From a virus: a stretch of 43,380 bases of DNA. The stretch covers positions 1-43,380 of IMG/VR virus record IMGVR_UViG_3300045988_083803. The stretch is one strand, 5' to 3'. Made by a program: the position numbers and the translations under genes. The notes under the pieces were generated by a model that saw only the letters and a list, made by a program, of their open reading frames with translations, was not told where the DNA came from and searched no databases. Positions 4,073-31,344 of this stretch are shown here, one piece after another (position 1 is the first letter of the stretch; the number at the start of each line of letters is the position of its first letter).

Positions 4073-4109
4073 AAGTTGGCACAACATCAATCAAAATTAG
4101 TTCTACAAT
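4072..4109 (+). promoter_or_regulatory. Late-promoter candidate 1: 25-bp box AAAGTTGGCACAACATCAATCAAAA plus TACAAT 7 nt downstream
   Basis: The box 4072-4096 is identical to 9242-9266. A TAnnnT hexamer follows at the same spacing in both copies. Confidence 0.5.
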
Positions 4110-9214: not shown

Positions 9215-9232
9215 CACCCTCCTTTTTCTTTT
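9205..9232 (+). terminator. Intrinsic terminator
   Basis: GGAGGGT-TAAC-ACCCTCC (perfect 7 bp) is followed by TTTTTCTTTT. The stop codon lies in the loop. Confidence 0.8.
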
Positions 9233-9241
9233 GCCATTTTG

Positions 9242-9279
9242 AAAGTTGGCACAACATCAATCAAAAATCATGGTAGGGT
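9242..9279 (+). promoter_or_regulatory. Late-promoter candidate 2: identical 25-bp box plus TGgTAGGGT
   Basis: The box 9242-9266 equals 4072-4096. TAGGGT at 9274-9279 has the same offset as TACAAT in copy 1. It sits between a terminator and the scaffold gene. Confidence 0.5.
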
Positions 9280-9357
9280 GTAGCCACTGTAAAGAATAAC
9301 AGTCGCAATACGGCTATAGCGCGAGAATGCGCCCCAAAGAATAGGAGAAGAAATAGC

Positions 9358-9945: not shown

Positions 9946-9956
9946 AGGAGTAATAC

Positions 9957-10979
9957 ATGGCAGTATTTGATAACAAACACTTTAACAGTGAGGTATTTGG
10001 AAAATACCTTGAAACCGTACCGAGAATTAAGCAGAACGCTTTTTTAAGAGCAGGTATTTTTAACATTAGAGACGAGCTTAAAACATTACTTGCAGATCAG
10101 ACAGGCGGCAACTACGTTGTATTGCCTATGGTTGGCTTAATTGGCGGTGATGCTCAAAACTACGATGGTAAAACTACGATTACACCTAATAGCATTGATA
10201 GCTATATGCAGGGTATTGTAGCTTATGGTAGAGCTAATTCGTGGGGAGAGAAGGACTTTACTAGAGATATCACGGGACATGATTTTATGGTAGATATTGC
10301 AAAGCAGGTATCTGGCTACTGGGATGATAACCTACAGTTTAATATCTTAGCTGTCCTTGAAGGTATTTTTGGCATGACCGAAACGAATGATGCCAAGTTT
10401 GTTGAAGGACATACATTCGACATCACTGAAGCAAATGAAAAGACTGTGGGTGTAACCACACTTAATAATGCTATCCAGAAAGCAGCAGGTGCAAACAAGA
10501 ATATTTTTTCACTTGTGATTGCGCATTCTCAGGTAGCTACTAATCTTGAGAACTTGCAGGTATTACAGTACGGCAAGGGTGTAGATGCAAACGGAGTTGA
10601 AAAAGATCTGACGCTTGCTACATGGAACGGCAGAACCGTACTAATTGATGATGATGCTCCGTTTGACTCTGATACAGGCGCATACACAACTTATATTTTA
10701 GGGCGAGGCGCATTTGATTATTGCGATATTGGCGCAGCAGTGCCAAATGAAACAACTCGTGACCCGTTTAAGTACGGTGGGCAGGATTTTTTGATCTCCC
10801 GTCAGCGCAAGGCAATTGCTCCGAGAGGAATCACTTATAAGCAGCCTACAACCACAACGTCTCCAATGCCAGCTGATTTTAAAACAGCTTCGAACTGGAC
10901 ACTCGTTGAAAATGCAGAAAAAACTCAGAAGATTGATCACAAGGCAATTCCGATTGCACGCATCAAGTCTCTAGGCTAA
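9957..10979 (+). CDS. Major capsid protein
   Basis: 340 aa after the scaffold gene with a strong RBS (AAGGAG). Its position and size are typical of HK97-fold capsid proteins. Confidence 0.75.
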   Translation: MAVFDNKHFNSEVFGKYLETVPRIKQNAFLRAGIFNIRDELKTLLADQTGGNYVVLPMVGLIGGDAQNYDGKTTITPNSIDSYMQGIVAYGRANSWGEKDFTRDITGHDFMVDIAKQVSGYWDDNLQFNILAVLEGIFGMTETNDAKFVEGHTFDITEANEKTVGVTTLNNAIQKAAGANKNIFSLVIAHSQVATNLENLQVLQYGKGVDANGVEKDLTLATWNGRTVLIDDDAPFDSDTGAYTTYILGRGAFDYCDIGAAVPNETTRDPFKYGGQDFLISRQRKAIAPRGITYKQPTTTTSPMPADFKTASNWTLVENAEKTQKIDHKAIPIARIKSLG

Positions 10980-10993
10980 GAAAGGTGGGGGCT

Positions 10994-13061: not shown

Positions 13062-13396
13062 TGAAATTATCAGATATCAAAGGCGATCAGGTACTTGATG
13101 TACTTGCAGAAGTAATTGTGCCAGTAACCAATATTGCAATGGATGAAGCAGCAGCGGCAATTTTTAAAAAGGCAGAGCTTCCAGAGGGCGAAAGCAGAAC
13201 TACTTTTGCATTGAAACGCATTCAGAAAAATATTCCTGCACTCATCAAGGGGCATAAGGACGATCTAATCAAAATTATGGCTATTATCTCACAGCAGACT
13301 GAGGACGAGTACAAGCAGGGGTTGAGCATGGCATCGTTTATTCACGATCTTACTGACCTAATGTCAGACGAGGAATTCGTAAAGCTTTTTACCTGA
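13058..13396 (+). CDS. Tail assembly chaperone (gpG-like)
   Basis: Acidic 112-aa ORF directly upstream of the tape measure, followed by a -1 frame ORF. Confidence 0.6.
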   Translation: MMKLSDIKGDQVLDVLAEVIVPVTNIAMDEAAAAIFKKAELPEGESRTTFALKRIQKNIPALIKGHKDDLIKIMAIISQQTEDEYKQGLSMASFIHDLTDLMSDEEFVKLFT

Positions 13397-19548: not shown

Positions 19549-21644
19549 TTAAAGCAATTTATGATTTGGATATGACACCAAGAAGAAGCCTTCCAATCAT
19601 CATCAACGTTTCGCAGAATGATGATCTTGGAAGAACGCTCGTCTTTAACCTCTTTTCTTCAACTGGAACATGGACAGCACCAGACAGCGCAACCGCAACC
19701 CTCGAAGGTGGAAAGCCAGATGGAAAGTTCTTTTCTTTTAACTGCACATACTCTAAAGGAACGGTAACAGCGATCATCCAACAGCAGATGACTGCTGTAT
19801 CTGGAAAGGTTGTTTGCAAGGTAAAGGTGCAGTCTGGAAACAAGGTGATTGAGTCCGCGCCAATCTACATGATGGTAGATGCAGCAGGCATTCCAGATGG
19901 TGCAGACATGTCTAAGTCTGATGTTAACGATGCAGTGGCAGCGGCTACTAAAAAGATTGTTGAGCAGGTAGCAGGAAGTATACCATCTGATTACTCCGCA
20001 CTTAGCAAATCAGTTGATGAACTAAAGCAGGATTTAGGTGAGCTAAAAGATGCAACGAATGCTTTGCTATCTAACAATTTGCTAAACCCGAACAAAGTAA
20101 AAACAAATACGGAAATTAAGCAAACAACAGGCGAAGAATCACAAAATAACGGGTACTCTGTCACCGATTTTATGGAAGTAACAGAAGGGTTAAAGTATGT
20201 TTATGCATCAACTCAAGCGTTTTCATTTTTAAGAATCTGTTATTACTCTTCAAAAAATGCTTATATTAACGGAATAACTCTAAATGTTTACGAAAGAGAG
20301 CATATCATAGAAATCCCAAGTGGAGTAAAACTAATCAGGTTAATGGTGCGGGGCAATATAACACAAGATTGTTGGTTTGGAGAATCTGAAACAACGGATT
20401 ATTTGTATTCTGTGTATGGTTATTGCGGAAACAATGCAGTAGAAAAGTCTACGGTAAAGATAGATTACGCACTGTATAACACAGATAATATGTATGATTC
20501 TTCTGATAATAGAAATGCCAAAGGGAAAATTATCAATTGGAACAGAATGAATATTAGAGGATGTGTTTATACAGAAACTTTTGAAGACAATGCATCGTAT
20601 CATGTTTCAATGCCGATGCCAGTAAAATATGGAAAAACATACTACATGTATGGGAACAACGCAGGGAAATATGTTAGATTACAATGTCGTAGGTGGTACA
20701 TGTTAGACAAGGACTTAAAGATACTAGGAAGAGTCCTTGAAGCGGATAATGTAACTATAGATAATCCTTATGTTTCTTTTATTGTTTTTAACAATGAACT
20801 TGCATATAAAAACGATATTGTTATAACAGATAATCAAAATCAAGATGATGTACAAGACAACAATTTATATCAGAAACGTCTATCTGATGATACAGGATAC
20901 CTTATGTCAAAAAAGACCGCATTTGATTGGACTGGTAAAAACATTTGCGGATATGGTGATAGCATTACCCAATATGGATTTTGGATTCCTATAGTTGCTA
21001 AATGGTTCGGATTTTCCAAATACTATAATTATGGTTTAAGCGGTTCACATGTCGGAGATTGGGATGCTGATTCTGATTGGTGGGTTGGCTCTGAAAATTT
21101 TAAGGTGTATGGAAGTACTGCGAGTATAGCAGAAAAGCCCGCAAATGATGCAGTTGTTGTAAACGGAAGTTTTAGTAAACAATCAAGAATAGATTGTATT
21201 CCATCCGATACGGACGTGATTTTGATTATGGGCGGAACAAATGATATGCCTAGTGGTGTACCAATTGGTGAACTGAAATTTGGAATTGATTATGATACGA
21301 CCACTTTCAAAGGAGCGTTAGCAGAAACCGTAAAACGAGTTCAAACAAAACTTCCAAACGCACAAGTTGTATTGATGACCTGCATATACAATACAAAAAA
21401 CGACATAACTCCATACAACAAAGCAATTAAAGAAGTCGCTGACGAACTTGGATTGCATTATATTGATACACATGCATGTGGAATCAACAGATTTAATGCT
21501 AATGAGAAATTGCGAGATGGGACACATCCGACATACAATGACGGAAAATATACAGGTTCATTTATGATGGCAAGCACAATTATTAGTGGCTTACAAAATA
21601 TAAGGCCTCATTATAATGATTCATATCGTTATACGGTTAATTAA
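19545..21644 (+). CDS. Receptor-binding / baseplate upper protein (BppU-like N-terminus) fused to a C-terminal SGNH/GDSL esterase
   Basis: The N-terminus fits the BppU_N pattern. SGNH blocks are ICGYGDSITQYG, IMGGTNDMP and DGTHPT. The distal two-thirds is visibly AT-rich. Confidence 0.75.
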   Translation: MIKAIYDLDMTPRRSLPIIINVSQNDDLGRTLVFNLFSSTGTWTAPDSATATLEGGKPDGKFFSFNCTYSKGTVTAIIQQQMTAVSGKVVCKVKVQSGNKVIESAPIYMMVDAAGIPDGADMSKSDVNDAVAAATKKIVEQVAGSIPSDYSALSKSVDELKQDLGELKDATNALLSNNLLNPNKVKTNTEIKQTTGEESQNNGYSVTDFMEVTEGLKYVYASTQAFSFLRICYYSSKNAYINGITLNVYEREHIIEIPSGVKLIRLMVRGNITQDCWFGESETTDYLYSVYGYCGNNAVEKSTVKIDYALYNTDNMYDSSDNRNAKGKIINWNRMNIRGCVYTETFEDNASYHVSMPMPVKYGKTYYMYGNNAGKYVRLQCRRWYMLDKDLKILGRVLEADNVTIDNPYVSFIVFNNELAYKNDIVITDNQNQDDVQDNNLYQKRLSDDTGYLMSKKTAFDWTGKNICGYGDSITQYGFWIPIVAKWFGFSKYYNYGLSGSHVGDWDADSDWWVGSENFKVYGSTASIAEKPANDAVVVNGSFSKQSRIDCIPSDTDVILIMGGTNDMPSGVPIGELKFGIDYDTTTFKGALAETVKRVQTKLPNAQVVLMTCIYNTKNDITPYNKAIKEVADELGLHYIDTHACGINRFNANEKLRDGTHPTYNDGKYTGSFMMASTIISGLQNIRPHYNDSYRYTVN

Positions 21645-21776: not shown

Positions 21777-22043
21777 ATGGCACTTTTGGAAACCCTGATA
21801 CCTGCATGTATATCAGCAGGAGTTACCTTGCTTGTGTGCCTCATCAATAATCATGGACAGCAGGAACGCACACGGGCACTTATGGAATATAAGTTGGATG
21901 AGCTTGCAAAGAGAGTTGATAAACACAATTCGGTGATCGAGCGGACTTATAATCTCGAAAAGGACATGGCGGTTGTGATGGAAAAAATCGGTGTAGCAAA
22001 TCACCGAATCAAAGATTTGGAGCAGGAGGAAAAAGAGGAATGA
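21777..22043 (+). CDS. N-terminally membrane-anchored coiled-coil protein, lysis-cassette associated
   Basis: TAAGGAG RBS. TM segment LIPACISAGVTLLVCLI followed by a charged coiled coil. ATGA-coupled to the holin. Confidence 0.5.
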   Translation: MALLETLIPACISAGVTLLVCLINNHGQQERTRALMEYKLDELAKRVDKHNSVIERTYNLEKDMAVVMEKIGVANHRIKDLEQEEKEE

Positions 22044-22228
22044 AGAAGTGGTTAAAAACCGTAGGTATCAGATGTGTTAAGACTATGGCACAGGCAGCAA
22101 TTGGAGTCATTGGCTCCTCTGCCATGCTTGCCGAGGTAGATTGGAAGGTATGCCTATCAACTGTGGTTCTGGCAGGTATCACTTGCATCTTGATGAACGT
22201 AAGCCAGATCAAGGAAACGGAGGTATGA
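22040..22228 (+). CDS. Holin (two TM segments)
   Basis: 62 aa with TM segments TMAQAAIGVIGSSAML and VCLSTVVLAGITCILMNV and a charged C-terminus. It lies upstream of the endolysin. Confidence 0.6.
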   Translation: MKKWLKTVGIRCVKTMAQAAIGVIGSSAMLAEVDWKVCLSTVVLAGITCILMNVSQIKETEV

Positions 22229-22554
22229 AAATGAAAGCTATGTTATCGCAGCCAATGGCGGGCAAAACTGATGAGGAAATTGTTGCAACAAGAGAAAAGG
22301 CTGTTACAGCTTTAGAGGCGAAGGGCTATGAAATCGTAAATACTCTTTTTACAGACGAGTGGTACAGCAATGAAGCTATGAAGGAACGCGGTGTTGTACA
22401 GATTCCACTCTGTTTCTTAGCTAAGTCTCTGGAGAACATGAGCCTGTGCCATGCTGCATATTTCTGCAAGGGATGGGAAAAGGCTAGAGGATGCCGTATT
22501 GAACATGATGCAGCAGTAGCTTATGGATTAACAATCATCTACGAGGAGGACTAG
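22225..22554 (+). CDS. DUF4406 / nucleoside 2-deoxyribosyltransferase-like protein
   Basis: ATGA overlap with the holin stop. SQPMAGKTDEEI...GWEKARGCRIEHDAAVAYGL matches the DUF4406 pattern from memory. Confidence 0.55.
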   Translation: MKMKAMLSQPMAGKTDEEIVATREKAVTALEAKGYEIVNTLFTDEWYSNEAMKERGVVQIPLCFLAKSLENMSLCHAAYFCKGWEKARGCRIEHDAAVAYGLTIIYEED

Positions 22555-22557
22555 TTA

Positions 22558-23538
22558 ATGATACATGTAGGTAGTGCAAGAATTGATGAGAACGGCAAGC
22601 TGATTGGTGGGCAGGCAGGAGATCAGACAGGGCAGGAAGTAGCTGTAGAAGCATGGTATCGCCATGATAAGGGGTGGGTAGTCATCCGTGCTAAAGATGC
22701 AGCAGTGCGTGAGCGCATTGCACAGTGCATGGAAGCAGCGTGCGCAAATAATAATGTTGGTTACGATCAGTCTGCGTCTTGGGAATTGTACGACAAGGCT
22801 AAGCAGTACGGATGGGATTGTAGCAAGGTTAACACCCCAGTGGAGACAGACTGTAGCAGCCTTGTACGTGTATGTGTAGCTTTTGCTATTGGCAAGGATG
22901 TGCCGTGGTTTTCAACAGCTAATCAGGTGCTTGTACTTGATGCAACAAAGCTTTTTGATGTTATTACAGATACAAGTGTTACCAATCATGATACCGCCCT
23001 TAAACGTGGGGATATTCTCTGCACACGCACACAGGGGCACACCGTGGTAGTCCTTGATAACGGATCAGCAGTAAGCGGCAGCACCTCAAAGCCATCAGAG
23101 GGCAATACAAGCTTCTGCGGCAAGGGTATCGGAACGGCAGTTGCAAAGACTGCAATGCATATTAGAGACGGAGCAAAAGACTCTGCAAACTCTCTTGCTA
23201 TCATCCAAAAGGGAACGGCAGTAGAAGTACTTGAAGTAACCGCTGATTTTTGGTACAAAATCGTGTGGCCAGGTGCATCATGTGGCTACGCATATACTAA
23301 GGGCGGTGAAGTGTACTACAGCTATACAGCTATCAAGTCCACAGCTATCAGCGTGGGCGATGCGGTATACTTTTCTGGTGGTGCGCAGTATATCTCCGCA
23401 TGGGCTACAACACCAGTAGCAGCTAAGGCAGGAAAAGCAAAAGTTACACAGCTTTGTGCGACTGGTAAGCATAACTATCACATCGTAGGCGATGGAGTCT
23501 ATGGTTGGGTAGATGGATCTACTTTAAAAAAGGAGTAA
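22558..23538 (+). CDS. Endolysin: NlpC/P60-like cysteine peptidase plus SH3b-type wall-binding repeats
   Basis: Catalytic-type Cys in ETDCSSLVRV and His in GDILCTRTQGHTVVVLDNG. The C-terminus has WYKIVWPG...GYAYTKGG and YHIVGDGVYGWVDGSTL. Confidence 0.8.
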   Translation: MIHVGSARIDENGKLIGGQAGDQTGQEVAVEAWYRHDKGWVVIRAKDAAVRERIAQCMEAACANNNVGYDQSASWELYDKAKQYGWDCSKVNTPVETDCSSLVRVCVAFAIGKDVPWFSTANQVLVLDATKLFDVITDTSVTNHDTALKRGDILCTRTQGHTVVVLDNGSAVSGSTSKPSEGNTSFCGKGIGTAVAKTAMHIRDGAKDSANSLAIIQKGTAVEVLEVTADFWYKIVWPGASCGYAYTKGGEVYYSYTAIKSTAISVGDAVYFSGGAQYISAWATTPVAAKAGKAKVTQLCATGKHNYHIVGDGVYGWVDGSTLKKE

Positions 23539-23685: not shown

Positions 23686-23943
23686 ATGGATAGAGGACTT
23701 GTAAAAGCATTCTGGAATTGCGGAGACAATACGATAATCGAGTTTGCATTGATGAGGGCGAGGCTTAACCAGAGGGAGAAAGAGGCGGTTGCATACCTCT
23801 TGGACGATTGCTTGTCGCAGGAGCAGGCAGCTGAAAAGATGTGTGTAAGTACCAGAAGATTTCAAGAATATTGGTACTCTGCAACCGATAAACTCTTGGC
23901 TCTGCCTTGGTTGGTAGCCTATGCAAATGAATTAAAAAAATAA
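23686..23943 (+). CDS. Second sigma-70 region-4-like HTH regulator
   Basis: LNQREKEAVAYLLDDCLSQEQAAEKMCVSTRRFQEYW is a region-4-type HTH. Confidence 0.5.
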   Translation: MDRGLVKAFWNCGDNTIIEFALMRARLNQREKEAVAYLLDDCLSQEQAAEKMCVSTRRFQEYWYSATDKLLALPWLVAYANELKK

Positions 23944-24047: not shown

Positions 24048-24614
24048 ATGAGAAAAGTATTTTATGCGCTTGCAGCTGCATCTATGCTTATGGCATCGGT
24101 AGCACCTACAATGGCAGAGGAAACCACAGAGGCTCAAACTGTAATCGAAGGAGACGAGGACAGCATAGAGGGAATTGAAGCTCTTTTGCAGCAACTTGAT
24201 AAGCGCATCGCAGAGTTGAAAATCAAATTAAAGGAGCTGAGAGGTGAAACCGCAGTACAAGAGGGCGATGTGATCTACCAAGATGATATGATTATCTTAA
24301 CTTATGATGGCATCACGGACGAGTACGGAAGATATGATATCAAGTTTACTGCCGAAAATCTTACCGATAAAAAGATTCGTGTTCAGACGGCTGACGCATC
24401 TATAAACAACATTATGACGTACTCAATGTTTGCGGCAGGCATGGAGGCAAACAAGACGGCAAAGGGAACCTTGACCATCACTGACGAGGTTGAAGTTGAG
24501 AGCCTTGAAGATTTGGAGACGATGGAGTTTAAGATTCAAGTTCTGGACGATACCACATATCAAGAACTTTTACTTACCGAACCTATCACCCTTAATTTTG
24601 ATTTGAGTGAGTAA
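24048..24614 (+). CDS. Secreted protein (signal peptide), moron gene 1
   Basis: MRKVFYALAAASMLMASVAPTMA-EE is a signal peptide. It is followed by a coiled coil and a beta-rich domain. Confidence 0.6.
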   Translation: MRKVFYALAAASMLMASVAPTMAEETTEAQTVIEGDEDSIEGIEALLQQLDKRIAELKIKLKELRGETAVQEGDVIYQDDMIILTYDGITDEYGRYDIKFTAENLTDKKIRVQTADASINNIMTYSMFAAGMEANKTAKGTLTITDEVEVESLEDLETMEFKIQVLDDTTYQELLLTEPITLNFDLSE

Positions 24615-24625
24615 AGGTGGTGCTT

Positions 24626-25147
24626 ATGGCAAAGACTATAAAATGCCCTAACTGTGGGGCAAGTATAAAGGGGAATGCGAAATCTTGTGAGTTTTGTGGC
24701 ACTCAGTTCTCGGCAGAGGTGCTAAAAGAGAACGAGAAAGCAAATAAAGCAGGGTGTCCAAAGTGTGGTAGTACAAATGTAACTTTTAGCCGTGAGAAGC
24801 AACGCGAGATCACAGCAGGAAAGAACACTGTAGCGATCAGATCAACCGTGGGAGTGTGCAAAGATTGCGGCTATACATGGGATGCAAGTGCAGGTGCGCA
24901 ACAGCCGAAGGAAAAGAAAAGAACTTGGCTTTGGGTTTTGGGATGGCTTTTTATCTTTCCAGTACCTTTAACAATTTTACTTTTACGTCCAACCACTCAA
25001 ATGGACAGTAAAGCCAGATGCGGCATCATCGTTGCTGCATGGGTGCTGTATGTGCTGATAATCGGTGGATCAGCTGCCAACAACAAGAATGCAGATCAGC
25101 CACCACAAACAGCGATAGAAACACAAGCAGAGCTTACAACTGAATAA
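24626..25147 (+). CDS. Double zinc-ribbon membrane protein, moron gene 2
   Basis: AAAGGTGG RBS. Zn-ribbon motifs CPNCG...CEFCG and CPKCG...CKDCG, then two TM helices (WLWVLGWLFIFPVPLTILLL and IIVAAWVLYVLIIGG). Confidence 0.6.
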   Translation: MAKTIKCPNCGASIKGNAKSCEFCGTQFSAEVLKENEKANKAGCPKCGSTNVTFSREKQREITAGKNTVAIRSTVGVCKDCGYTWDASAGAQQPKEKKRTWLWVLGWLFIFPVPLTILLLRPTTQMDSKARCGIIVAAWVLYVLIIGGSAANNKNADQPPQTAIETQAELTTE

Positions 25148-25158
25148 AAAAATAAATT

Positions 25159-25186
25159 GAGCTTACCAAACGGTAGGCTCTTTTTT
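25159..25186 (+). terminator. Intrinsic terminator
   Basis: GAGCTTACC-AAAC-GGTAGGCTC (one G-U pair) followed by TTTTTT. Confidence 0.8.
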
Positions 25187-25263
25187 ATGCGCAAAATTAT
25201 CGTTTCTGCATCGTGTATCTTTCAAAGCCTTTGTGCGATGATATGAGCAGGAGGAATGAGAGC

Positions 25264-25647
25264 ATGTATAAAAAGTATAATCCAAATCCAGAAGCCGCGA
25301 GAGTAGGAGATTGCACGGTAAGAGCATTGTGCAAAGCTCTCAACCAAGACTGGGACAAAACTTACCTACAGCTATGTATACAAGGCTTGCTAATGGCAGA
25401 TATGCCATCTGCTAACGCTGTGTGGGGTGCATTTTTGAGCCAGAACGGTTTTAAACGTGGCATAGTTTCGGAATCATGTCCAGTATGCTACACTGTCGCA
25501 GATTTTGCAGCTGAACACCCTCACGGGGTATATGTAATTGCGTTAGGCAGCCATGTTGTAACGGTAGTGGATGGGAATTATTTTGATACATGGGACTCTG
25601 GGCAGGAAATCCCCCTCTACTTTTGGGAAAGGAGTGATGAAGCATGA
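25264..25647 (+). CDS. Accessory cassette gene 1: papain/C39-like Cys...His protein
   Basis: AGGAGGA RBS. GDCTVRALCKAL ... SHVVTVVDGNYFDTWDSG has the layout of a cysteine-peptidase fold (inference). Confidence 0.5.
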   Translation: MYKKYNPNPEAARVGDCTVRALCKALNQDWDKTYLQLCIQGLLMADMPSANAVWGAFLSQNGFKRGIVSESCPVCYTVADFAAEHPHGVYVIALGSHVVTVVDGNYFDTWDSGQEIPLYFWERSDEA

Positions 25648-26123
25648 ACGGATATAACCCTTACTATGGATATCAACCTTATAGCCCACCAGTCCCAGAT
25701 CAGCTAGCGCAACTGCGGTACAATCAGGGGATGCAGCAAGGAATGCAGCAGGGCTTTCAAGGGTTCGGGCAGCAAAGCAATGATGAACGTATCTGGGTGC
25801 AGGGTAAGAATGCGGCAGAAGCTTATCTAGTGGCGGCAAATGGCTTTGTAAGACTTTGGGATAGCAACGGACAAGTTTTTTACGAGAAACGAGCTGATGC
25901 ATCAGGGCGACCGTGCATGGAAACCTACGAGTACAAACGACTGGGCGCAGAGCTGCCTAAAACGGGAGCAGAAAGCAAGAGTAGTGTAAATGATTACTCA
26001 AAAGAGATTGATAGCTTGAAGGTACGGCTAGCGGCACTAGAAAAACGTTTAAACGATGGAGGTAGAGCAAATGCAAATGTTTCAGAATCCAATGCAAATG
26101 ATTCAGCAGTTTCAGAAATTTAA
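25644..26123 (+). CDS. Accessory cassette gene 2: Tyr/Pro/Gln-rich N-terminus, small globular core and coiled-coil tail
   Basis: ATGA overlap. Encodes NPYYGYQPYSPPVPDQ...QGMQQGMQQGFQGFGQQ. Confidence 0.55.
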   Translation: MNGYNPYYGYQPYSPPVPDQLAQLRYNQGMQQGMQQGFQGFGQQSNDERIWVQGKNAAEAYLVAANGFVRLWDSNGQVFYEKRADASGRPCMETYEYKRLGAELPKTGAESKSSVNDYSKEIDSLKVRLAALEKRLNDGGRANANVSESNANDSAVSEI

Positions 26124-26259
26124 GCAGCAGTTTACAGGCGATCCAAAGGCAGAGGTGCAGAAGCTCCTCACCTCTGGCAAGATCAATCAGCAGCAACTCA
26201 ATCAGTTGCAAGCAATGGCGCAACAGTTTCAAGGGTTGTTAAATAGCAATGGTAAGTAA
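26071..26259 (+). CDS. Accessory cassette gene 3: 62-aa Gln-rich peptide
   Basis: GGAGGT lies 7 nt before ATG 26071. Encodes MQMFQNPMQMIQQFQKFKQQF...QQQLNQLQAMAQQFQ. It overlaps the gene-2 tail by 53 nt. Confidence 0.45.
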   Translation: MQMFQNPMQMIQQFQKFKQQFTGDPKAEVQKLLTSGKINQQQLNQLQAMAQQFQGLLNSNGK

Positions 26260-26310
26260 ATCACGCAAAATGCGTTGATTATACAAAAAACTCAGAAAGG
26301 AGAAAAATTT

Positions 26311-27165
26311 ATGAGTTTAACAAGTGAAAGTATGACTCCTGCCGATATCGCAGCCGTAACAGGTAATAACGGTAACGGAATGTGGGGTGATGGTGGTGCA
26401 TGGTGGATCATCATTCTTTTCCTCTTCGTGTTCTGCGGTTGGGGAAACGGTAACGGATGGGGAAACAACGGAGGTGCAGGCGCGGCTGATAACTACGTTT
26501 TAGCAAGCGATTTTGCAACCTTACAGCGACAGATCGACAGCTCTACAGCGTCATTAGAGCGCAAATCCGATGCAATCAACAGCGGCTTATGTGATGGCTT
26601 TTATGCGCAGAACACTACCGCATTGACTGGATTTGCAAATGTAAACCAGAACCTTTGCAATGGCTTTTCACAGGCTGAGTTATCCAGAGCCAACGGGCAG
26701 ATGAACCTCATGCAGCAGATGAACGCAAACAATATCACAGCTATGCAGAATGCAAATGCTTTGCAGTCTCAGCTTGCACAGTGCTGTTGTGATAACCGAG
26801 AAGCCATAGCAGGTATAAATTACAACATGGCGATGAATACCAATGCTTTGCAGCACAGTGTAGAATCTGGATTCTGCCAGACAAACTACAACAACGCTTC
26901 CAACACACGCGATATCATCGACAATCAGAACAGCAACGCAAGAGCTATCCTTGATGCACTGAACGCACAGCAGCTTGCAGCGAAAGACGCGAAGATTGCC
27001 GAGCAGAATCAGCAGATTTTCGGCTTGCAGTTAGCAGCATCACAGCAGGCACAGAACAACTACTTGGTTCAGACGCTTAAGCCTGCACCAGTTCCGAGCT
27101 TCCCTGCTGGACAGCTTTACGGCTATATGAACGGTTGCTGCAATCCATGCAATAGCTGTTCCTGA
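26311..27165 (+). CDS. Accessory cassette gene 4: single-pass membrane protein, Gly/Asn/Trp-flanked TM, long N/Q-rich Cys-studded region
   Basis: AAAGGAG RBS. Encodes GNNGNGMWGDGGAWWIIILFLFVFCGWGNGNGWGNNGG, has QCCCDNR, and ends GCCNPCNSCS. Confidence 0.6.
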   Translation: MSLTSESMTPADIAAVTGNNGNGMWGDGGAWWIIILFLFVFCGWGNGNGWGNNGGAGAADNYVLASDFATLQRQIDSSTASLERKSDAINSGLCDGFYAQNTTALTGFANVNQNLCNGFSQAELSRANGQMNLMQQMNANNITAMQNANALQSQLAQCCCDNREAIAGINYNMAMNTNALQHSVESGFCQTNYNNASNTRDIIDNQNSNARAILDALNAQQLAAKDAKIAEQNQQIFGLQLAASQQAQNNYLVQTLKPAPVPSFPAGQLYGYMNGCCNPCNSCS

Positions 27166-27180
27166 TAGGGGGTGGCGAGT

Positions 27181-27591
27181 ATGGCAGAATATACGTTAAC
27201 CACACCTACAGCCGTCCCTCTGGGCGGTGCAGTGCCATATACCAACACAATTATCAAGGGTTGCTGTAATATCAAGCACAGGGCAGGATCAGGGCAGGTG
27301 ACTGTCAAGGGCGGCACTTGCTGCAATCCTGCAAAGTACCTTGTGTACTTCCATGCCAACGTAACAGGGGTTGCAGGAGCAATTCAGCTTGCACTGTTTT
27401 TGGATGGCGAGAGGCTTCCAGAAACCTTGATGGCTGTTGTTCCTGCCGCTGCGACTGACGTTTGGTCAGTGAGTGCAGAAACTGAATTTTGCGTGGACTG
27501 CTGCTGTGGCACAGTCTCAGCAAGAGTAGTAGAGGGTGCAACTGTTACGATTAATACAGCAGAGATAATTGTAAAGAAGGAGGTGGCATAA
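27181..27591 (+). CDS. Accessory cassette gene 5: Cys-cluster beta-rich protein, possibly a C1q/TNF (BclA C-terminal)-like jelly roll
   Basis: GGGGGTGG RBS. Cys clusters KGCCNIKH, GGTCCNP and VDCCCGT. The fold assignment is by pattern recollection only. Confidence 0.5.
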   Translation: MAEYTLTTPTAVPLGGAVPYTNTIIKGCCNIKHRAGSGQVTVKGGTCCNPAKYLVYFHANVTGVAGAIQLALFLDGERLPETLMAVVPAAATDVWSVSAETEFCVDCCCGTVSARVVEGATVTINTAEIIVKKEVA

Positions 27592-27986
27592 TGGGAACAA
27601 TGGAAGATTTGAAGCGCATGATTTGCACAGAGCTTGAGGAAATCGCACAGAAAGGTGAAATGTCCGCAGGTGATCTTGATACAGTATACAAGCTCATCGT
27701 ATCGAAGGAAAAGCTTCTGCGCATTGACGAGCTTGAAGAAAAGCTTGGCTATAGCGAGGACGGCAGAAAATGGAGATACAGCAGAGACGGAGAGCCAGAT
27801 GGCGGTAGCAGCTATGGACGGCATTATGTGAGGGCACACTACAGCAGAGACGGCAGAGGACGCTACAGCATGGATGAAGGGCGCACGATGCTTGCAGATC
27901 AAATCAAAGATATGATTGATAACAGCGATCTGAGCCAGAGTCAGAAAGGCGCACTCAGAAAGGCAATGGAAGCTTTGCAGGAATGA
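27591..27986 (+). CDS. Accessory cassette gene 6: helical ends with an Arg/Gly/Tyr/Ser/Asp-rich centre
   Basis: GAAGGAGGTGG RBS and TAATG overlap. The centre reads YSRDGEPDGGSSYGRHYVRAHYSRDGRGRYSMDEGR. Confidence 0.55.
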   Translation: MGTMEDLKRMICTELEEIAQKGEMSAGDLDTVYKLIVSKEKLLRIDELEEKLGYSEDGRKWRYSRDGEPDGGSSYGRHYVRAHYSRDGRGRYSMDEGRTMLADQIKDMIDNSDLSQSQKGALRKAMEALQE

Positions 27987-28007
27987 TGATGGAAAGGGGG
28001 TAGAGCG

Positions 28008-28331
28008 ATGCTTGATATGGACGAGATAAAAAGTGAGATTGCACGGCTTGAAAATGGAAATATCACCTTTTCAACTGTGGAAAAGCTTGCTATGCTCTAC
28101 ATAGTACAAGAGCGCAACTCCCCTACACCAGAACCAGAGCCAATTGAGATACAGCAAATGCCAAGATATGCGTATGCAGCAGCTCCAACTGCCCCTAAAT
28201 CTGATTTTTTAGAGGCGGTTGGAAAAGTACCGATAGAAAAAGCCTTAGATGTACTGGATGAGCATATGGAAGCAATAAAGCTGCTATATCCTAAGGAGTA
28301 CAAGGCTGTGATCAGCAAGATTTTAGAGTAA
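28008..28331 (+). CDS. Accessory cassette gene 7: hypothetical protein with a Pro-rich linker
   Basis: AAAGGGGG RBS. It has the linker SPTPEPEPIEIQQ and is the last gene before the terminator. Confidence 0.5.
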   Translation: MLDMDEIKSEIARLENGNITFSTVEKLAMLYIVQERNSPTPEPEPIEIQQMPRYAYAAAPTAPKSDFLEAVGKVPIEKALDVLDEHMEAIKLLYPKEYKAVISKILE

Positions 28332-28332
28332 C

Positions 28333-28365
28333 AAAAAAAAGGCAGGGAGCTTTTAGCCCTCTGCC
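28333..28365. terminator. Bidirectional terminator between convergent gene sets (stronger on the minus strand)
   Basis: AAAAAAAA-GGCAGGGAGC-TTTTA-GCCCTCTGCC-TTT, an imperfect 10-bp stem. An 8-nt U-run results when read on the minus strand. Confidence 0.6.
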
Positions 28366-28374
28366 TTTAACTGT

Positions 28375-29058
28375 TTATCGAAAATTGATATAGCTGTGCC
28401 AAAAATATCCGTTTTTTAATCTTTCGAGATCCGATTCGTAAGTGTCAATGTCGTGATGATCTAGCTTTCCAATCAATTCCATGTATTGATATTCATATCC
28501 ATCTTCTTTCATGAGGTCTGCCATGATCTTCCATACCATAAGAGACTTAGCTTCATCGTAAGGCTTACCTTCGTACCACTCGTCTCTCTCTTCAAGCAAT
28601 CCAAGTTCTTCCGCTTTCTTTTCATACATTGGAAGAAACTGCAAATCATGCTCTGGAATTGAATCAGTAGTAATAACTTCACATGCTTTGAAATAATAAT
28701 GCTTAAAAAGTGAATTGAATTTAGACGGAATTTGACGTGGTGCGTGTTTGTGCTTGTACTGCTCGGTAAGATCAGATACTAGCGCACTCAAATCTATATC
28801 ATCTGGCATTGCACTGGTAATATAGCAATAACCGTCATTTGCGTTAAAGATACAATACCATGTGCTGCCATCTGCCTTGAACTTGAAAACGTCCAAGCTG
28901 TAGAAGCAGTTATCGGTGCAAATAATAGGGGATAACTCCAATGGTATATTGCATTTGCTTGCAGAGTCTAACAGGCTTTCTAAGCTTTCCGTGTAGCATA
29001 CCGTAACAGCAACTCCATAATGCGTTCCTTCAAATAATGGCTTTAAAAAATTTTTCAT
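28375..29058 (-). CDS. Unknown 227-aa protein, last gene of the reverse-strand operon
   Basis: ORF track entry. It starts 1 nt after the upstream stop. The region is AT-rich. No motif recognised. Confidence 0.6.
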   Translation of the reverse strand: MKNFLKPLFEGTHYGVAVTVCYTESLESLLDSASKCNIPLELSPIICTDNCFYSLDVFKFKADGSTWYCIFNANDGYCYITSAMPDDIDLSALVSDLTEQYKHKHAPRQIPSKFNSLFKHYYFKACEVITTDSIPEHDLQFLPMYEKKAEELGLLEERDEWYEGKPYDEAKSLMVWKIMADLMKEDGYEYQYMELIGKLDHHDIDTYESDLERLKNGYFWHSYINFR

Positions 29059-29930: not shown

Positions 29931-29982
29931 TTTTTGCTATTATGTTACTATGACAAGTGACAAGGTGACATAATAGCAAAAA
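29931..29982. repeat. Perfect 14-bp inverted repeat around a 24-bp core (attP candidate)
   Basis: TTTTTGCTATTATG (29931-29944) and CATAATAGCAAAAA (29969-29982). The right arm ends 27 bp from the integrase stop codon. Confidence 0.45.
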
Positions 29983-30009
29983 GTAAGCACAAAAAAATTG
30001 CACAAAAAT

Positions 30010-31344
30010 TTAAACAAAGTACACCTTGTCGACTGAGTGACGCTTGATCTCGATTTTCCTCACAACTCTGTGCCAGAAATCTCGCTTTCCCTGTCTTGAT
30101 AGCTGCTCGTAAATTTCCTTCCAGTTATCTGGCATCTGGCTGACTGGTAGCGCAGGTGCTGCCAAACTCTCAAGCTCCGCAAGCTGTGCTTTCAGCTCTT
30201 TTGTTTTTTCAAGATACTCAGCACGGCTCATATCACCATCAAGGTATATATCTTTCAGCCGTTCCAATCTCCCCTTGATCTTCTCAATTTTTCCCTCGGT
30301 GCTTTTTGCTTTCGCTGCAAGCTTTTGAACGCTTGCGTTATAGTCTACAATCAATTCTTCCAGATGATCTATCATGTAGCTTTCCAAATTGTGTTCCATG
30401 ATGAATGCAGCGTTTTTGCATTCTCCTCTCCGCACAGTTCTCATGCGACATTGATAGTATAGCTTTTCACTTGGTTTGCCGTAGCTTGTATAGCAAGTAC
30501 ACTTGGAACCCATCCTTGCACCACAACTTGCGCAGAAGATCAACCCTGTAAAAATATATACTCTGTCTGCTTTTGGCTGTCTGGGATAATGCTGCCTTGC
30601 TTGCTGTATAAGCTCATGTTGTGCAGGTGTGATATATCCTGGCACTGATACACCATAGTAAGTGCCGTAGTACGGCTCTTTATCAAGCAAAAAATGAGCG
30701 GTTTTCCGAGACATTTTCAAGCCCTTTTCGGCAGCTGCATCCATGGCTTGCACTGGGCTGTATGTGTTAAGATAGGTATCGAAAAAAGCTTGCATAGCTT
30801 CTTTTGTCTGAGGATCGAAGTCAATCGTAGATGCTGATGTGCGGATATATCCGAGTGGCATCTTGCCTACTATGATATATCCCTGCGATTTGCGATACTC
30901 GTTAACCGCTCTGATACGCTCTGAGGTGCGGTCTGACTCAGCTTGGGCGATGGAAAGCATGATGTTAACCTTGAAAACACCTGCGGACGTTTCCGTCTCG
31001 TAGTCCTCCCAGATAGCTCTCCAAGGCACTTTTGCGGCATCAAGCTGACTCTGTACCTCATAGTAGTCCGCAACCGAGCGAAACCATCTATCGAGCTTTG
31101 TAAAAAGGATGATATCAATTTTGTGATCTTTGCAATCCTGTATAAGTTGTAGCAGCGCAGGACGTGCTTTGTACTTCTTTCTCGCACTAATGCCTGCATC
31201 GTTGTAGATGCCTGCAACTTCCAAACTGTTCTCGCGGCAATACTTTTGCAGCGCATCAATCTGGCTATCTACTGATAAGCCGTGATCTCTTTGTTCTGCG
31301 GTTGATACGCGGACATATATAGCCGCCCTTTTCTTTCCTTCCAT
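30010..31344 (-). CDS. int: Large serine recombinase (integrase)
   Basis: AAIYVRVSTAEQ contains the catalytic Ser. Resolvase domain, recombinase domain and a Cys-rich zinc ribbon (CASCG...CTCY...YYQC), then a coiled-coil C-terminus. Confidence 0.9.
   Translation of the reverse strand: MEGKKRAAIYVRVSTAEQRDHGLSVDSQIDALQKYCRENSLEVAGIYNDAGISARKKYKARPALLQLIQDCKDHKIDIILFTKLDRWFRSVADYYEVQSQLDAAKVPWRAIWEDYETETSAGVFKVNIMLSIAQAESDRTSERIRAVNEYRKSQGYIIVGKMPLGYIRTSASTIDFDPQTKEAMQAFFDTYLNTYSPVQAMDAAAEKGLKMSRKTAHFLLDKEPYYGTYYGVSVPGYITPAQHELIQQARQHYPRQPKADRVYIFTGLIFCASCGARMGSKCTCYTSYGKPSEKLYYQCRMRTVRRGECKNAAFIMEHNLESYMIDHLEELIVDYNASVQKLAAKAKSTEGKIEKIKGRLERLKDIYLDGDMSRAEYLEKTKELKAQLAELESLAAPALPVSQMPDNWKEIYEQLSRQGKRDFWHRVVRKIEIKRHSVDKVYFV

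What the first reader, a model, noticed from the sequence alone, without database searches (positions are those of the whole stretch)
25187..28365. Insulated seven-gene Q/N-rich, Cys-cluster accessory cassette with no described phage role
Seen in the sequence:
- Seven ORFs (25264..25647, 25644..26123, 26071..26259, 26311..27165, 27181..27591, 27591..27986, 28008..28331) are co-oriented and tightly coupled. There is an ATGA overlap at 25644, a TAATG overlap at 27591, and AGGAGG-type RBSs.
- The set is bracketed by intrinsic terminators at 25159-25186 and 28333-28365. It lies outside the structural, lysis, lysogeny and replication modules.
- The protein compositions are atypical for phage proteins. 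Gene 2 starts NPYYGYQPYSPP...QGMQQGMQQGFQGFGQQ. Gene 3 is a 62-aa Gln-rich peptide.
- Gene 4 has one TM helix flanked by Gly/Asn/Trp (GNNGNGMWGDGGAWWIIILFLFVFCGWGNGNGWGNNGG). It continues as a long N/Q-rich region with spaced Cys (LCDGF, LCNGF, QCCCDNR, GFCQ) and ends GCCNPCNSCS.
- Gene 5 carries KGCCNIKH, GGTCCNP and VDCCCGT on a beta-rich body of about 135 aa.
- Gene 1 has a Cys...His layout (GDCTVRA ... SHVVTVVDGNYFDTWD).

Inference:
- Gene 5 may be a C1q/TNF (BclA C-terminal)-like jelly roll, and gene 1 a papain/C39-like peptidase.
- Together with Q-rich and Cys-rich partners, this resembles cross-linkable spore-coat or exosporium building blocks (GerQ-like, CotY/CdeC-like, BclA, tiny Gly-rich YjcZ-type TM proteins).
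- Alternatively it could be a peptidase-matured envelope or bacteriocin-like product carried as lysogenic conversion.
Basis: partly seen in the sequence, partly recalled or inferred. Interest (0 to 1): 0.78.

Follow-up and report, generated by a model that had tools for sequence, protein, structure and literature searches.

The report
Conserved Cys-rich accessory gene module in gut phages
The seven genes are real and form part of a conserved, very common module of gut Clostridia phages (its own small regulator, a Cys-rich membrane-anchored protein, a BclA/TNF-fold protein and a small peptidase) that matches no described system, looks like spore-surface proteins only in fold and composition, and also occurs in phages of non-spore-forming hosts.

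Summary
All seven ORFs exist with RBSs, the ATGA and TAATG overlaps, and an upstream terminator. The downstream hairpin is mainly a terminator for the converging minus-strand gene. g1, g4, g5 and g6 are under strong purifying selection. The window is a temperate siphovirus of an uncultured Lachnospiraceae, and the cassette lies between lysis and integration genes, about 1.6 kb from the prophage edge.

Two fold predictions are borne out. g5 is a TNF/C1q jelly roll closest to BclA-C and ExsFA/BxpB. g1 has an invariant Cys-His-Asp in papain-like topology, with only weak structural support.

It is a small sigma70-region-4/GerE-type HTH plus g2-g3-g4, with exchangeable partners (g5, g6, g7, g1). 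g1 is fused to g2 in some genomes. It moves from the first to the last slot in others, and an HExxH ORF replaces it in ten loci.

The spore-coat reading is weakened. The module occurs in a lytic phage of non-spore-forming Butyrivibrio and in a Vescimonas prophage, and no sporulation-type promoters are enriched. No curated family, defence system or paper describes it. The function is unresolved. My best guess is a peptidase-matured, Cys-locked, membrane-tethered assembly.

The parts
23686..23943 (+). Small (85 aa) sigma70-region-4/GerE-type HTH ORF. It belongs to the regulator family that accompanies the cassette. In this window it lies 1.3 kb upstream, separated from g1 by two unrelated genes.
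   Evidence: jackhmmer links it to the family found upstream, on the same strand, in 52 of 78 loci. A family member scores 28.3 bits on Pfam GerE (cutoff 23.5), and its L038 homologue gives a weak Sigma70_r4 hit at E 2.5e-4. The window ORF itself has no direct Pfam hit.
25159..25186 (+). Intrinsic terminator that closes the preceding unit (late genes and the two upstream accessory genes).
   Evidence: 9-bp stem with 5 GC pairs, 4-nt loop and a T6 run, dG -14.5 kcal/mol.
25183..25190 (+). TTTTATGC motif directly after the terminator T-run. It may be a promoter or operator element, or a module boundary.
   Evidence: Present upstream of the cassette in 8 of 73 loci against 0.3 expected, with 0 of 300 shuffles reaching that count. 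Function not shown.
25264..25647 (+). g1: a 127-aa papain-like (Cys-His-Asp) putative cysteine peptidase.
   Evidence: Invariant C17, H97 and D108. Model pLDDT 93.5, with Cys at a helix N-terminus and His at a strand start. Weak Josephin match. phrog_3754. 2,776 family representatives. Fused to g2 in P0343, P0396 and P0397. 8 synonymous and 0 nonsynonymous differences against relatives.
25644..26123 (+). g2: a Y/P/Q-rich N-terminus, a conserved beta domain of about 55 aa, and a C-terminal helix. Core member and the likely partner or substrate of g1.
   Evidence: Directly upstream of g4 in 72 of 78 loci, and 3 of the 6 exceptions are truncated contigs. Alignment A4. ATGA overlap with g1. phrog_21718.
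26071..26259 (+). g3: a 62-aa Gln-rich helical peptide that overlaps the end of g2 in another frame. Core member.
   Evidence: GGAGG RBS at the 26071 start. phrog_22984. Detected in 24 loci, and a g3-like small ORF fills the g2-g4 gap in most of the others.
26263..26275 (+). Small hairpin between g3 and the g4 RBS. Related loci carry a larger SD-sequestering leader at this position.
   Evidence: ACGCAAAATGCGT. The spacer folds at dG -9.2 kcal/mol. The larger element in 8 related loci is described.
26311..27165 (+). g4: the hallmark protein. It has a conserved N-terminus, one hydrophobic segment flanked by Gly/Asn/Trp, an N/Q-rich helical region with near-invariant Cys (GLCDGFY, QCCCD), a coiled-coil-like stretch, a Pro-rich stretch and a Cys-rich tail.
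   Evidence: Alignment A3. Across 72 homologues the Cys of GLCDGFY is 99% conserved, the CCC triplet 96-97% and two tail Cys about 90%. At least 7,949 protein clusters. phrog_16490. pN/pS 0.07. No Pfam, NCBIfam or PDB match.
27181..27591 (+). g5: a stand-alone TNF/C1q/BclA-C-type jelly roll of 136 aa with a conserved CC pair.
   Evidence: Model pLDDT 89.6. Foldseek matches: F-BclA-CTD at E 1e-9 and TM 0.76, then BclA, BxpB, ExsFA, then EDA and C1q. Viral library matches are stand-alone gut-phage proteins at TM 0.83-0.95, two of them auto-named 'BclA protein'. Present in 43 of 78 loci. pN/pS 0.07.
27591..27986 (+). g6: N- and C-terminal helices around a variable R/G/Y/S/D-rich low-complexity core.
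   Evidence: Alignment A5. Present in 40 of 78 loci. TAATG coupling to g5. pN/pS 0.08.
28008..28331 (+). g7: a 107-aa helix / Pro-rich linker / helix protein. It is the least conserved member.
   Evidence: Present in 17 of 78 loci. A natural g4::g7-like fusion exists, P0263. No family match.
28338..28368 (.). Hairpin between the converging g7 and gene 28375-29058. It is a strong terminator on the - strand (U8) and weak on the + strand (UUU).
   Evidence: dG -18.2 (+ strand) and -17.7 (- strand) kcal/mol. Only the - strand site passed the terminator scan.

Best explanation
This is a self-contained, horizontally mobile phage accessory module, not seven unrelated hypothetical genes.

SHOWN: composition of the module.
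- Its conserved core is a small sigma70-region-4/GerE-type HTH protein plus g2, g3 and g4.
- The partners are exchangeable: g5, g6, g7 and a peptidase, which is either papain-like g1 or, in other lineages, an HExxH protein.

INFERRED: where it assembles.
- Only g4 has a hydrophobic anchor, and none of the other proteins has a signal peptide.
- So the proteins are made and assembled in the cytoplasm, at the inner face of the membrane.

INFERRED: role of each part.
- g4 is the anchor and stalk. It carries one transmembrane-like segment, an N/Q-rich helical region with near-invariant Cys (C...CCC...) and a Cys-rich tail.
- g5 is a trimeric TNF/BclA-type cap or tip.
- g2 is bound and probably processed by the g1 peptidase.
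- g3, g6 and g7 are low-complexity adaptors.
- The conserved cysteines stay reduced inside the anaerobic host. They lock the assembly by disulfides or metal binding, most plausibly when the contents are released.

INFERRED: regulation and role.
- The HTH protein controls the unit, which is bracketed by terminators.
- The role is not spore-specific.
- Because the module is kept in an apparently virulent phage and usually follows the late and lysis genes, it most likely acts late in productive infection. In lysogens it may also be expressed as a moron.

What the assembly does for the phage is unknown.
For: A real functional unit:
- g2 sits directly before g4 in 72 of 78 loci. g5 is in 43, g6 in 40, g1 in 41, and the HTH family in 52.
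- g1 occupies two slots: 1-2-3-4-5-6-7, or 2-4-5-6-1. In the second arrangement its start lies within 12 nt of the g6 stop in 11 of 14 loci.
- Natural g1::g2 fusions exist. P0397 residues 1-124 match g1 at E 1e-30, and residues 171-219 match the g2 beta domain at E 1e-7.
- An HExxH ORF with invariant H, E and H fills the terminal slot in 10 loci, and none of them has g1. The hypergeometric P is 3e-4, ignoring relatedness.

Parts:
- g5 fold.
- g1 triad and topology.
- Conserved Cys in g4 and g5.
- Only g4 has a hydrophobic segment. The other six proteins have maximum KD19 values of 1.34 or less.

Autonomy:
- Upstream terminator.
- An HTH - terminator - spacer - cassette layout in many loci, with extended -10-like TGnGATAAT in some.
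- The position varies. It lies after endolysins and before integrases or host DNA in most loci, and between the MuF-like minor capsid gene and the scaffold gene in three.

Lytic-cycle relevance:
- The full cassette is present in Ceridwen, which was seen only in lytic growth.

Selection:
- pN/pS of 0.07-0.08 for g4, g5 and g6.
Against: - No physical interaction, proteolysis, membrane insertion or disulfide has been shown, and no structure was obtained for g2, g3, g4, g6 or g7.
- g1 homologues occur alone in early regions of Tsamsa-like Bacillus phages, GBK2 and Lak megaphages. g1 may therefore have a general role unrelated to the partners.
- The g4 hydrophobic core is short (about 15 residues) with no flanking positive charges, so its topology, and even whether it inserts in the membrane, are uncertain.
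- The window has no recognisable sigmaA promoter before g1.
- In the window the HTH is 1.3 kb upstream of g1, not adjacent to it.
- Timing of expression is inferred from position only.
Confidence: 0.4

Rival explanations
1. Virion-associated accessory structure. The proteins would form a decoration, whisker or fibre made of a g4 stalk and a g5 TNF-type knob. Alternatively they would be internal or ejected proteins, assembled in the cytoplasm and matured by g1.
For: - TNF/BclA-type domains cap phage tail fibres and giant-virus fibrils.
- In three loci the cassette lies inside the head-morphogenesis operon, between the MuF-like minor capsid gene and the scaffold gene.
- It is kept in an apparently virulent phage.
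- It has strong RBSs and no signal peptides.
- The peptidase-plus-partner fusion recalls fusions of prohead protease and scaffold (the parallel is from my own knowledge).
Against: - The usual position is outside the structural module, behind a terminator.
- It has its own HTH regulator.
- A hydrophobic anchor and Q/N- or RGY-rich low-complexity regions are unusual for virion proteins.
- The partners g5, g6 and g7 are dispensable in many loci.
- It occurs next to different tail and baseplate types.
Confidence: 0.2
2. The proteins are exosporium- or coat-like building blocks that the prophage adds to the host spore surface: a BclA/ExsF-like protein, CotY/CdeC-like Cys-rich proteins, a GerQ-like Gln-rich protein, and a peptidase or cross-linker.
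For: - The best PDB matches of g5 are exosporium proteins.
- Spore-surface proteins likewise lack signal peptides and assemble in the mother-cell cytoplasm (my own knowledge).
- CC motifs lock ENA spore fibres.
- Tgl, an enzyme with an NlpC/P60 core, cross-links Gln-rich GerQ.
- The regulator is a GerE-type stand-alone HTH.
- The hosts are Clostridia.
Against: - The full cassette is in a phage that grows lytically on Butyrivibrio, a non-spore-forming genus.
- It is also in a prophage of Vescimonas fastidiosa, whose type species is non-spore-forming.
- sigmaK, sigmaE and sigmaF/G -10 motifs are at or below chance upstream of 73 cassettes.
- There is no sequence match to any spore family.
- No Tgl structure appears among the 50 g1 fold matches listed.
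Confidence: 0.12
3. A membrane complex that protects the infected cell or lysogen, by superinfection exclusion or an undescribed defence or counter-defence function. It could instead assist lysis or egress.
For: - The position at the prophage edge next to the integrase or att site is typical of morons.
- It lies next to the lysis genes.
- It has a membrane-anchored core protein with exchangeable partners.
- g1-like genes lie near an ocr-like anti-restriction gene in Tsamsa.
Against: - No PADLOC family matches.
- Known exclusion systems have one or two genes (my own knowledge).
- The window already has an r1t-type holin, an XhlA-like protein and an endolysin.
- Nothing in the module resembles a nuclease, an NTPase or a toxin.
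Confidence: 0.12
4. A bacteriocin-like or modified-peptide product: g3 or g2 as the precursor, matured by a C39-like g1.
For: g1 has a Cys-His-Asp layout, and g3 is a small peptide.
Against: - There is no ABC transporter, immunity gene or modification enzyme.
- There is no C39 match.
- There is no double-glycine leader.
- g1 is absent from 37 of 78 loci.
Confidence: 0.02

Closest known systems
BclA C-terminal domain and ExsFA/BxpB, the TNF/C1q-fold exosporium proteins of the Bacillus cereus group
   Same: g5 shares the all-beta TNF-like jelly roll, at TM 0.72-0.79 and rmsd 2.5-3.1 A. Like ExsFA/BxpB it is a stand-alone domain of about 140 aa, and it has no signal peptide.
   Different: Sequence identity is 12-15%, with no Pfam BclA_C match. 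g5 has no collagen repeats and no N-terminal exosporium-targeting extension. It is encoded by phages, including phages of non-spore-forming hosts.
ENA endospore appendages: jelly-roll subunits locked by N-terminal CC motifs
   Same: The concept is shared: small jelly-roll proteins with CC motifs, made without signal peptides and locked by disulfides.
   Different: There is no sequence match, and no ENA subunit appears among the 50 PDB matches listed for g5. ENAs are spore structures, and this module is not tied to sporulation.
[quoted passage not shown]
   Same: A small papain-superfamily enzyme is paired with Gln-rich partner proteins.
   Different: Tgl uses a Cys/Glu dyad in a tunnel, while g1 has Cys-His-Asp. 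No Tgl or transglutaminase match was found by sequence or fold. Replacement of g1 by an HExxH protein argues for proteolysis rather than cross-linking.
Josephin-type papain-like cysteine proteases (deubiquitinases)
   Same: This is the best structural match for g1. The order Cys (helix N-terminus) ... His ... Asp/Asn is the same.
   Different: TM is only 0.50 and E is 0.048. There is no sequence similarity and no ubiquitin-like partner was identified.
Phage morons and lysogenic-conversion cassettes
   Same: The module sits at the prophage edge between the lysis genes and the integrase or att site. It is bracketed by terminators and varies in position among phages.
   Different: It is much larger than typical morons (up to eight genes), it has its own regulator, and it is retained in an apparently virulent phage.
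The tapA-sipW-tasA matrix operon with the adjacent sinR regulator in Bacillus subtilis (comparison from my own knowledge, not tested)
   Same: The gene logic is similar: a regulator, a Cys-containing anchor protein, a dedicated peptidase and a beta-rich fibre subunit.
   Different: TapA and TasA are Sec-exported and cleaved by a signal peptidase. Here no partner has a signal peptide, and there is no sequence relationship.

Membership tests
BclA_C / TNF-C1q jelly-roll domain (Pfam PF18573; SSF49842) | TNF-like all-beta jelly-roll fold | tested here: met
   AF2 model with pLDDT 89.6. Foldseek against PDB gives F-BclA-CTD at E 1e-9 and TM 0.76, then BclA, then EDA and C1q.
BclA_C / TNF-C1q jelly-roll domain (Pfam PF18573; SSF49842) | Sequence match to the family profile | tested here: not met
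   No Pfam family at E<=1 for g5. No PDB sequence hit for the g5 profile.
BclA-type collagen-like exosporium glycoprotein | Collagen GXY repeats and an N-terminal exosporium-targeting region before the C-terminal domain | tested here: not met
   g5 is 136 aa and the jelly roll begins at residue 2. There are no GXY repeats.
BclA_C / TNF-C1q jelly-roll domain | Homotrimer | not testable with these tools
   No multimer prediction was available.
Papain-like cysteine peptidase (clan CA), including C39 | Conserved Cys, then His, then Asp/Asn, with Cys at a helix N-terminus and His on a beta strand | tested here: met
   C17, H97 and D108 are invariant in 30 sequences. The model has helix 17-26 and strand 98-102. 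The side-chain geometry was not checked.
Papain-like cysteine peptidase (clan CA), including C39 | Significant structural similarity to a solved member | tested here: inconclusive
   The best match is Josephin-2 at E 0.048, probability 0.87 and TM 0.50. Ataxin-3 ranks 11th. Nothing reaches E<=0.001.
Peptidase C39 (bacteriocin-processing) | Sequence match to C39 profiles, and an associated ABC transporter | tested here: not met
   No Pfam or NCBIfam hit. No transporter is present in the window or the related loci.
Transglutaminase (Tgl or Transglut_core) | Sequence or fold match to a transglutaminase core | tested here: not met
   No Pfam hit. No Tgl or transglutaminase appears among the 50 Foldseek PDB matches listed for g1.
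YjcZ / tiny Gly-rich TM sporulation proteins (NCBIfam TIGR01732) | Match to the family model | tested here: not met
   The NCBIfam scan of g4 at E<=1 gives only a spurious SecD hit.
Sporulation-controlled genes | sigmaE, sigmaK, sigmaF or sigmaG-type promoter upstream | tested here: not met
   The -10 and full consensus patterns are at or below the shuffle expectation in 73 upstream regions. This was a consensus scan only.
Phage moron | Own terminator and own promoter, with a location between conserved modules | tested here: inconclusive
   The upstream terminator and the variable location are confirmed. No sigmaA promoter was found before g1 in the window. Extended -10-like motifs occur in some relatives. 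Expression was not measured.
Known anti-phage defence systems (PADLOC) | Match of any component to a defence-system model | tested here: not met
   No hit at E<=0.01 for the seven proteins or the three flanking proteins.
Holin or lysis accessory protein | Match to holin families, or absence of another holin | tested here: not met
   The window has an r1t-type holin (37 bits, cutoff 26.9), an XhlA-like ORF and an ELLD endolysin elsewhere. g4 matches no holin family.

The most novel reading that the evidence does not exclude
Gut Clostridia phages carry a very abundant, previously unrecognised kit for building an exosporium-like protein structure in non-sporulating cells. The structure would combine a BclA/ExsF-fold cap, a Cys-rich anchor and low-complexity adaptors, matured by a peptidase and governed by its own sigma-region-4-type regulator. 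It would stay reduced in the anaerobic cytoplasm and become cross-linked on release into oxygen. One example would be a protective or adhesive coat or fibre for virions or lysed-cell remnants that aids transmission between hosts.
Probability: 0.15. Interest if true: 0.85.

Novelty: categorically new. Interest (0 to 1): 0.6.

Why it matters
The g4 family alone comprises at least 7,949 protein clusters at 90% identity, and the g1 family has 2,776 representatives at 50% identity. This is therefore one of the commoner pieces of functional dark matter in human and animal gut phages, yet every curated library calls it unknown.

The module is now well enough defined to test directly:
- a core, exchangeable partners and a dedicated regulator;
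- gene fusions and an enzyme swap that point to a peptidase-substrate pair;
- invariant cysteines to mutate;
- two cultured systems, Butyrivibrio virus Ceridwen on B. fibrisolvens DSM 3071 and the prophage of Vescimonas fastidiosa MM35.

If the assembly proves to be a cross-linked coat or fibre, it would show that the TNF/BclA-type architecture of spore surfaces is also used by phages in non-sporulating anaerobes.

Tried and rejected
- Pfam, NCBIfam and PADLOC scans of all seven proteins gave nothing above threshold. PHROGs gave only unknown-function families.
- Sequence and profile searches of PDB for g1, g2, g4, g5, g6, g7 and the HTH gave nothing significant.
- Megablast of the region against GenBank phages gave no match.
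- Rfam scans of the window and ten related loci found no family at the g3-g4 leader.
- The Cys-rich 133-aa protein that follows g4 in g5-less loci was tested as a remote g5 homologue. hhalign gave a probability of 11%, so this is not supported.
- Pfam scans of longer g1-family members found no known fused domains. They turned out to be g1::g2 fusions and tandem g1 repeats.
- A consensus search for sporulation-sigma promoters was negative.
- Literature searches for prophage plus BclA or exosporium, phage sporulation genes and DUF7841 found no description of this module.
- The bacteriocin reading and the holin reading were considered and rejected (see rival explanations and the membership table).

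Full report
OBSERVATION. The seven co-oriented ORFs are present as described: g1 25264-25647, g2 25644-26123, g3 26071-26259, g4 26311-27165, g5 27181-27591, g6 27591-27986 and g7 28008-28331. Each start is preceded by an AGGAGG/GGAG-type ribosome-binding site. For g3 the 26071 start has GGAGG, whereas the longer 26056 ATG has none. The ATGA (g1/g2) and TAATG (g5/g6) overlaps are real. The upstream terminator has a 9-bp stem at 25159-25180 plus T6, with dG -14.5 kcal/mol.

The downstream hairpin at 28338-28368 is stable (dG -18.2). It is followed by UUU on the + strand and by U8 on the - strand, so it mainly terminates the converging gene 28375-29058. An independent gene caller on contigs about 92% identical calls the same seven genes. 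Against those relatives, pN/pS is 0.07 (g4), 0.07 (g5) and 0.08 (g6), and g1 has 8 synonymous and 0 nonsynonymous differences. These are real protein-coding genes.

CONTEXT. The window is a temperate siphovirus. The gene order is small and large terminase, SPP1-type portal, MuF-like protein, tape measure, tail proteins, a BppU/GDSL tail protein, an XhlA-like ORF, an r1t-type holin (22040-22228) and an ELLD-SH3 endolysin (22558-23538). On the minus strand lie HTH genes, a serine recombinase (30010-31344) and a CI-like repressor.

An integrated relative (L082) loses homology to the window at position 29966 and continues into host genes. One of those host proteins is 99% identical to a protein in a Hadza-gut Lachnospiraceae MAG. 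The host is therefore an uncultured Lachnospiraceae, attP lies just beyond the recombinase stop codon, and the cassette ends about 1.6 kb from the prophage edge.

WHAT THE PROTEINS ARE. Pfam, NCBIfam and PADLOC give nothing for any of the seven. PHROGs place g1-g5 in families of unknown function.

- g5: its model (pLDDT 89.6) is an all-beta jelly roll. The best PDB matches are the F-BclA C-terminal domain, BclA, BxpB and ExsFA (E 1e-9 to 1e-7, TM 0.72-0.79), followed by EDA/TNF and C1q domains. In the viral structure library the nearest are stand-alone 130-145-aa proteins of uncultured gut phages, two of them auto-named 'BclA protein'. Next come collagen-repeat fibres of giant viruses and phages that end in the same fold.
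- g1: its model has pLDDT 93.5. Cys17 is invariant and sits at the N-terminus of helix 17-26. His97 sits before strand 98-102, and Asp108 follows. This is the papain-like arrangement, but the best structural match is only Josephin-2 (E 0.048, probability 0.87, TM 0.50).
- g4: it has a conserved N-terminus, one hydrophobic segment flanked by Gly/Asn/Trp, and the invariant blocks DNYVLASDF..RQ, GLCDGFY, QCCCD and GFCQTNY. A coiled-coil-like stretch and a Cys-rich tail follow. Across 72 divergent homologues the GLCDGFY Cys is 99% conserved, the CCC triplet 96-97% and two tail Cys about 90%. g5 keeps a CC pair in 90-97% of 40 homologues.
- g2: a Y/P/Q-rich N-terminus, a conserved beta domain of about 55 residues and a C-terminal helix.
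- g6: two helical ends around an R/G/Y/S/D-rich low-complexity core.
- Only g4 has a hydrophobic segment, and none of the others has a signal peptide.

THE UNIT IS CONSERVED BUT DELIMITED DIFFERENTLY. I collected 78 loci that contain a g4 homologue: the window, 8 GenBank phage records and 69 species-level genomes, nearly all gut Clostridia. I then searched their ORFs with iterated HMMs.

- g2 lies directly upstream of g4 in 72 of 78 loci, and three of the six exceptions are truncated contigs.
- A g3-like small ORF fills the g2-g4 gap even where the search missed it.
- g5 is present in 43 loci, g6 in 40, g1 in 41 and g7 in 17.
- A small sigma70-region-4/GerE-type HTH protein lies upstream on the same strand in 52 loci, usually within 25-330 nt. 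The window's ORF 23686-23943 belongs to this family.
- The core is therefore HTH + g2 + g3 + g4, with exchangeable partners.
- Other partners include a DUF7841 protein, a long g6-like protein, an unrelated Cys-rich beta protein (not demonstrably homologous to g5) and an HExxH protein.

THREE LINES TIE THE PEPTIDASE TO THE CASSETTE.
1. g1 occupies two different slots: first (1-2-3-4-5-6-7) or last (2-4-5-6-1). In the last-slot arrangement its start lies within 12 nt of the g6 stop in 11 of 14 loci. In the window it is coupled to g2 by ATGA.
2. Natural g1::g2 fusion proteins exist (P0343, P0396, P0397). P0397 residues 1-124 match g1 (41% identity, E 1e-30), and residues 171-219 match the g2 beta domain (42%, E 1e-7). 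The two parts are joined by a Q/P/Y/N-rich linker that corresponds to the g2 N-terminus.
3. In ten loci the terminal slot holds a 110-aa protein with an invariant HExxH, and none of these loci has g1 (P about 3e-4, ignoring relatedness). That looks like replacement of one peptidase by another, and it favours proteolysis over transglutaminase-type chemistry.

On the other hand, g1 homologues also occur alone, in early regions of Tsamsa-like Bacillus phages, Geobacillus phage GBK2 and Lak megaphages. g1 is thus a widespread module that is only sometimes recruited here.

WHERE IT SITS AND WHEN IT MAY ACT. Upstream neighbours are mostly endolysins (Amidase_2, Amidase_3, M15, CHAP, M23, GH25). Downstream neighbours are tyrosine or serine recombinases in about 15 loci, or host housekeeping genes. 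In three loci the module lies between the MuF-like minor capsid gene and the scaffold gene. Many loci show the layout HTH gene, terminator, short spacer, cassette. Some have TGnGATAAT-type extended -10 elements, and an enriched TTTTATGC follows the T-run in 8 of 73 loci against 0.3 expected. The window has that motif at 25183-25190. No sigmaA promoter was detected before g1 in the window.

THE SPORE READING. Several results argue against a spore-specific role.

- The complete g1-g7 set is present in Butyrivibrio virus Ceridwen. Ceridwen was observed only in lytic growth and was judged virulent, and its host genus is described as non-spore-forming.
- A g2-g7 set sits at the edge of a prophage in the cultured Vescimonas fastidiosa MM35. 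The type species of that genus is non-spore-forming, in agreement with genome predictions.
- sigmaK, sigmaE and sigmaF/G consensus motifs are at or below chance upstream of 73 cassettes.
- No protein matches a spore family by sequence.
- The paper on sporulation genes in gut phages does not mention coat or exosporium genes.

I therefore rate a spore-specific role at about 0.12.

BEST EXPLANATION (confidence 0.4; the mechanism is inferred, not shown). This is an autonomous accessory module that builds a cytoplasmically assembled, membrane-tethered protein assembly. g4 would be the Cys-rich anchor and stalk, g5 a trimeric TNF/BclA-type cap, and g2 the partner and probable substrate of the peptidase g1. 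g3, g6 and g7 would be low-complexity adaptors, and the small HTH protein the regulator. The invariant cysteines would stay reduced in the anaerobic cytoplasm and lock the assembly by disulfides or metal. Retention in a virulent phage and placement after the late genes suggest action late in infection. The position at the prophage edge also allows moron-type expression.

Rivals are a virion decoration or fibre (0.2), spore-surface conversion (0.12), an exclusion, defence or lysis accessory (0.12) and a bacteriocin (0.02).

NOVELTY. No curated library, defence catalogue or paper that I could search describes this module. Its parts belong to known fold classes, but the system as a whole cannot be filed under any known kind. 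It is extremely common: at least 7,949 g4 clusters and 2,776 g1 representatives.

Noticed in passing
Related loci, just upstream of g4: L041 ~9790-9941, L047 ~9625-9728, L048 ~3985-4086, L057 ~1400-1502, L058 ~2990-3091, L060 ~1810-1909, L061 ~9655-9761, L068 ~2725-2843. The window has only a small hairpin at 26263-26275.: A conserved leader of about 100 nt lies between the g3-like ORF and g4. Its outer helix pairs a CTCCTnTCAG strand with the g4 Shine-Dalgarno (CTGAnAAGGAG), and it encloses two hairpins. RNAalifold predicts 23 pairs, 11 of them with compensatory changes. No Rfam family matches. It is a candidate new translational control element.
   Followed up: partly
L006 (Dulem virus 39) 13133-13197 (+) and 10924-10991 (-); L033 (Clostridium sp. 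CAG:510) 5310-5378 (-): Type II hammerhead ribozymes (RF02276, 54-59 bits against a cutoff of 37) occur in cassette-bearing phage and prophage loci.
   Followed up: no
Proteins P0370 (299 aa) and P0385 (354 aa), from the g1 profile search: These are tandem duplications of the g1 domain. In the second copy the catalytic Cys is replaced by Ser (GDC becomes QDS or SDS), which suggests a pseudo-enzyme partner.
   Followed up: no
Protein P0263 (327 aa): The N-terminal two-thirds of g4 is fused to a g7-like C-terminus, skipping g5 and g6. This is either a natural deletion or fusion, or an assembly artefact.
   Followed up: no
window 24048-24614 and 24617-25147: Two further unknown genes lie between the HTH ORF and the cassette. 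One is an acidic 188-aa protein with a Sec-type signal peptide. The other is a 176-aa double zinc-ribbon protein with a C-terminal transmembrane segment. Neither recurs in the other 77 loci.
   Followed up: partly
window 22141-22554 (ATG start probably near 22225): A DUF4406 ORF lies between the holin and the endolysin. It is present in the window and in L080 but absent from the otherwise collinear relatives L081 and L082, so it is a recent indel inside the lysis module.
   Followed up: no
window ~29966-30010: Homology to the integrated relative L082 ends at 29966. This places attP immediately downstream of the serine recombinase stop codon. In L082 the neighbouring host genes are glycogen synthase, NFACT, yicC, remA and gmk.
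   Followed up: partly
window 19545-21644: This tail protein combines a BppU N-terminal domain with a C-terminal GDSL/SGNH esterase domain, which suggests a receptor-modifying (deacetylase-type) activity at the baseplate.
   Followed up: no
L163 (Vescimonas fastidiosa MM35, NZ_AP023416.1) 8184-10918: A cultured, sequenced isolate carries g2-g7-sized genes at the edge of a prophage, after a holin and an amidase. All are annotated as hypothetical. This makes it a ready experimental system.
   Followed up: partly
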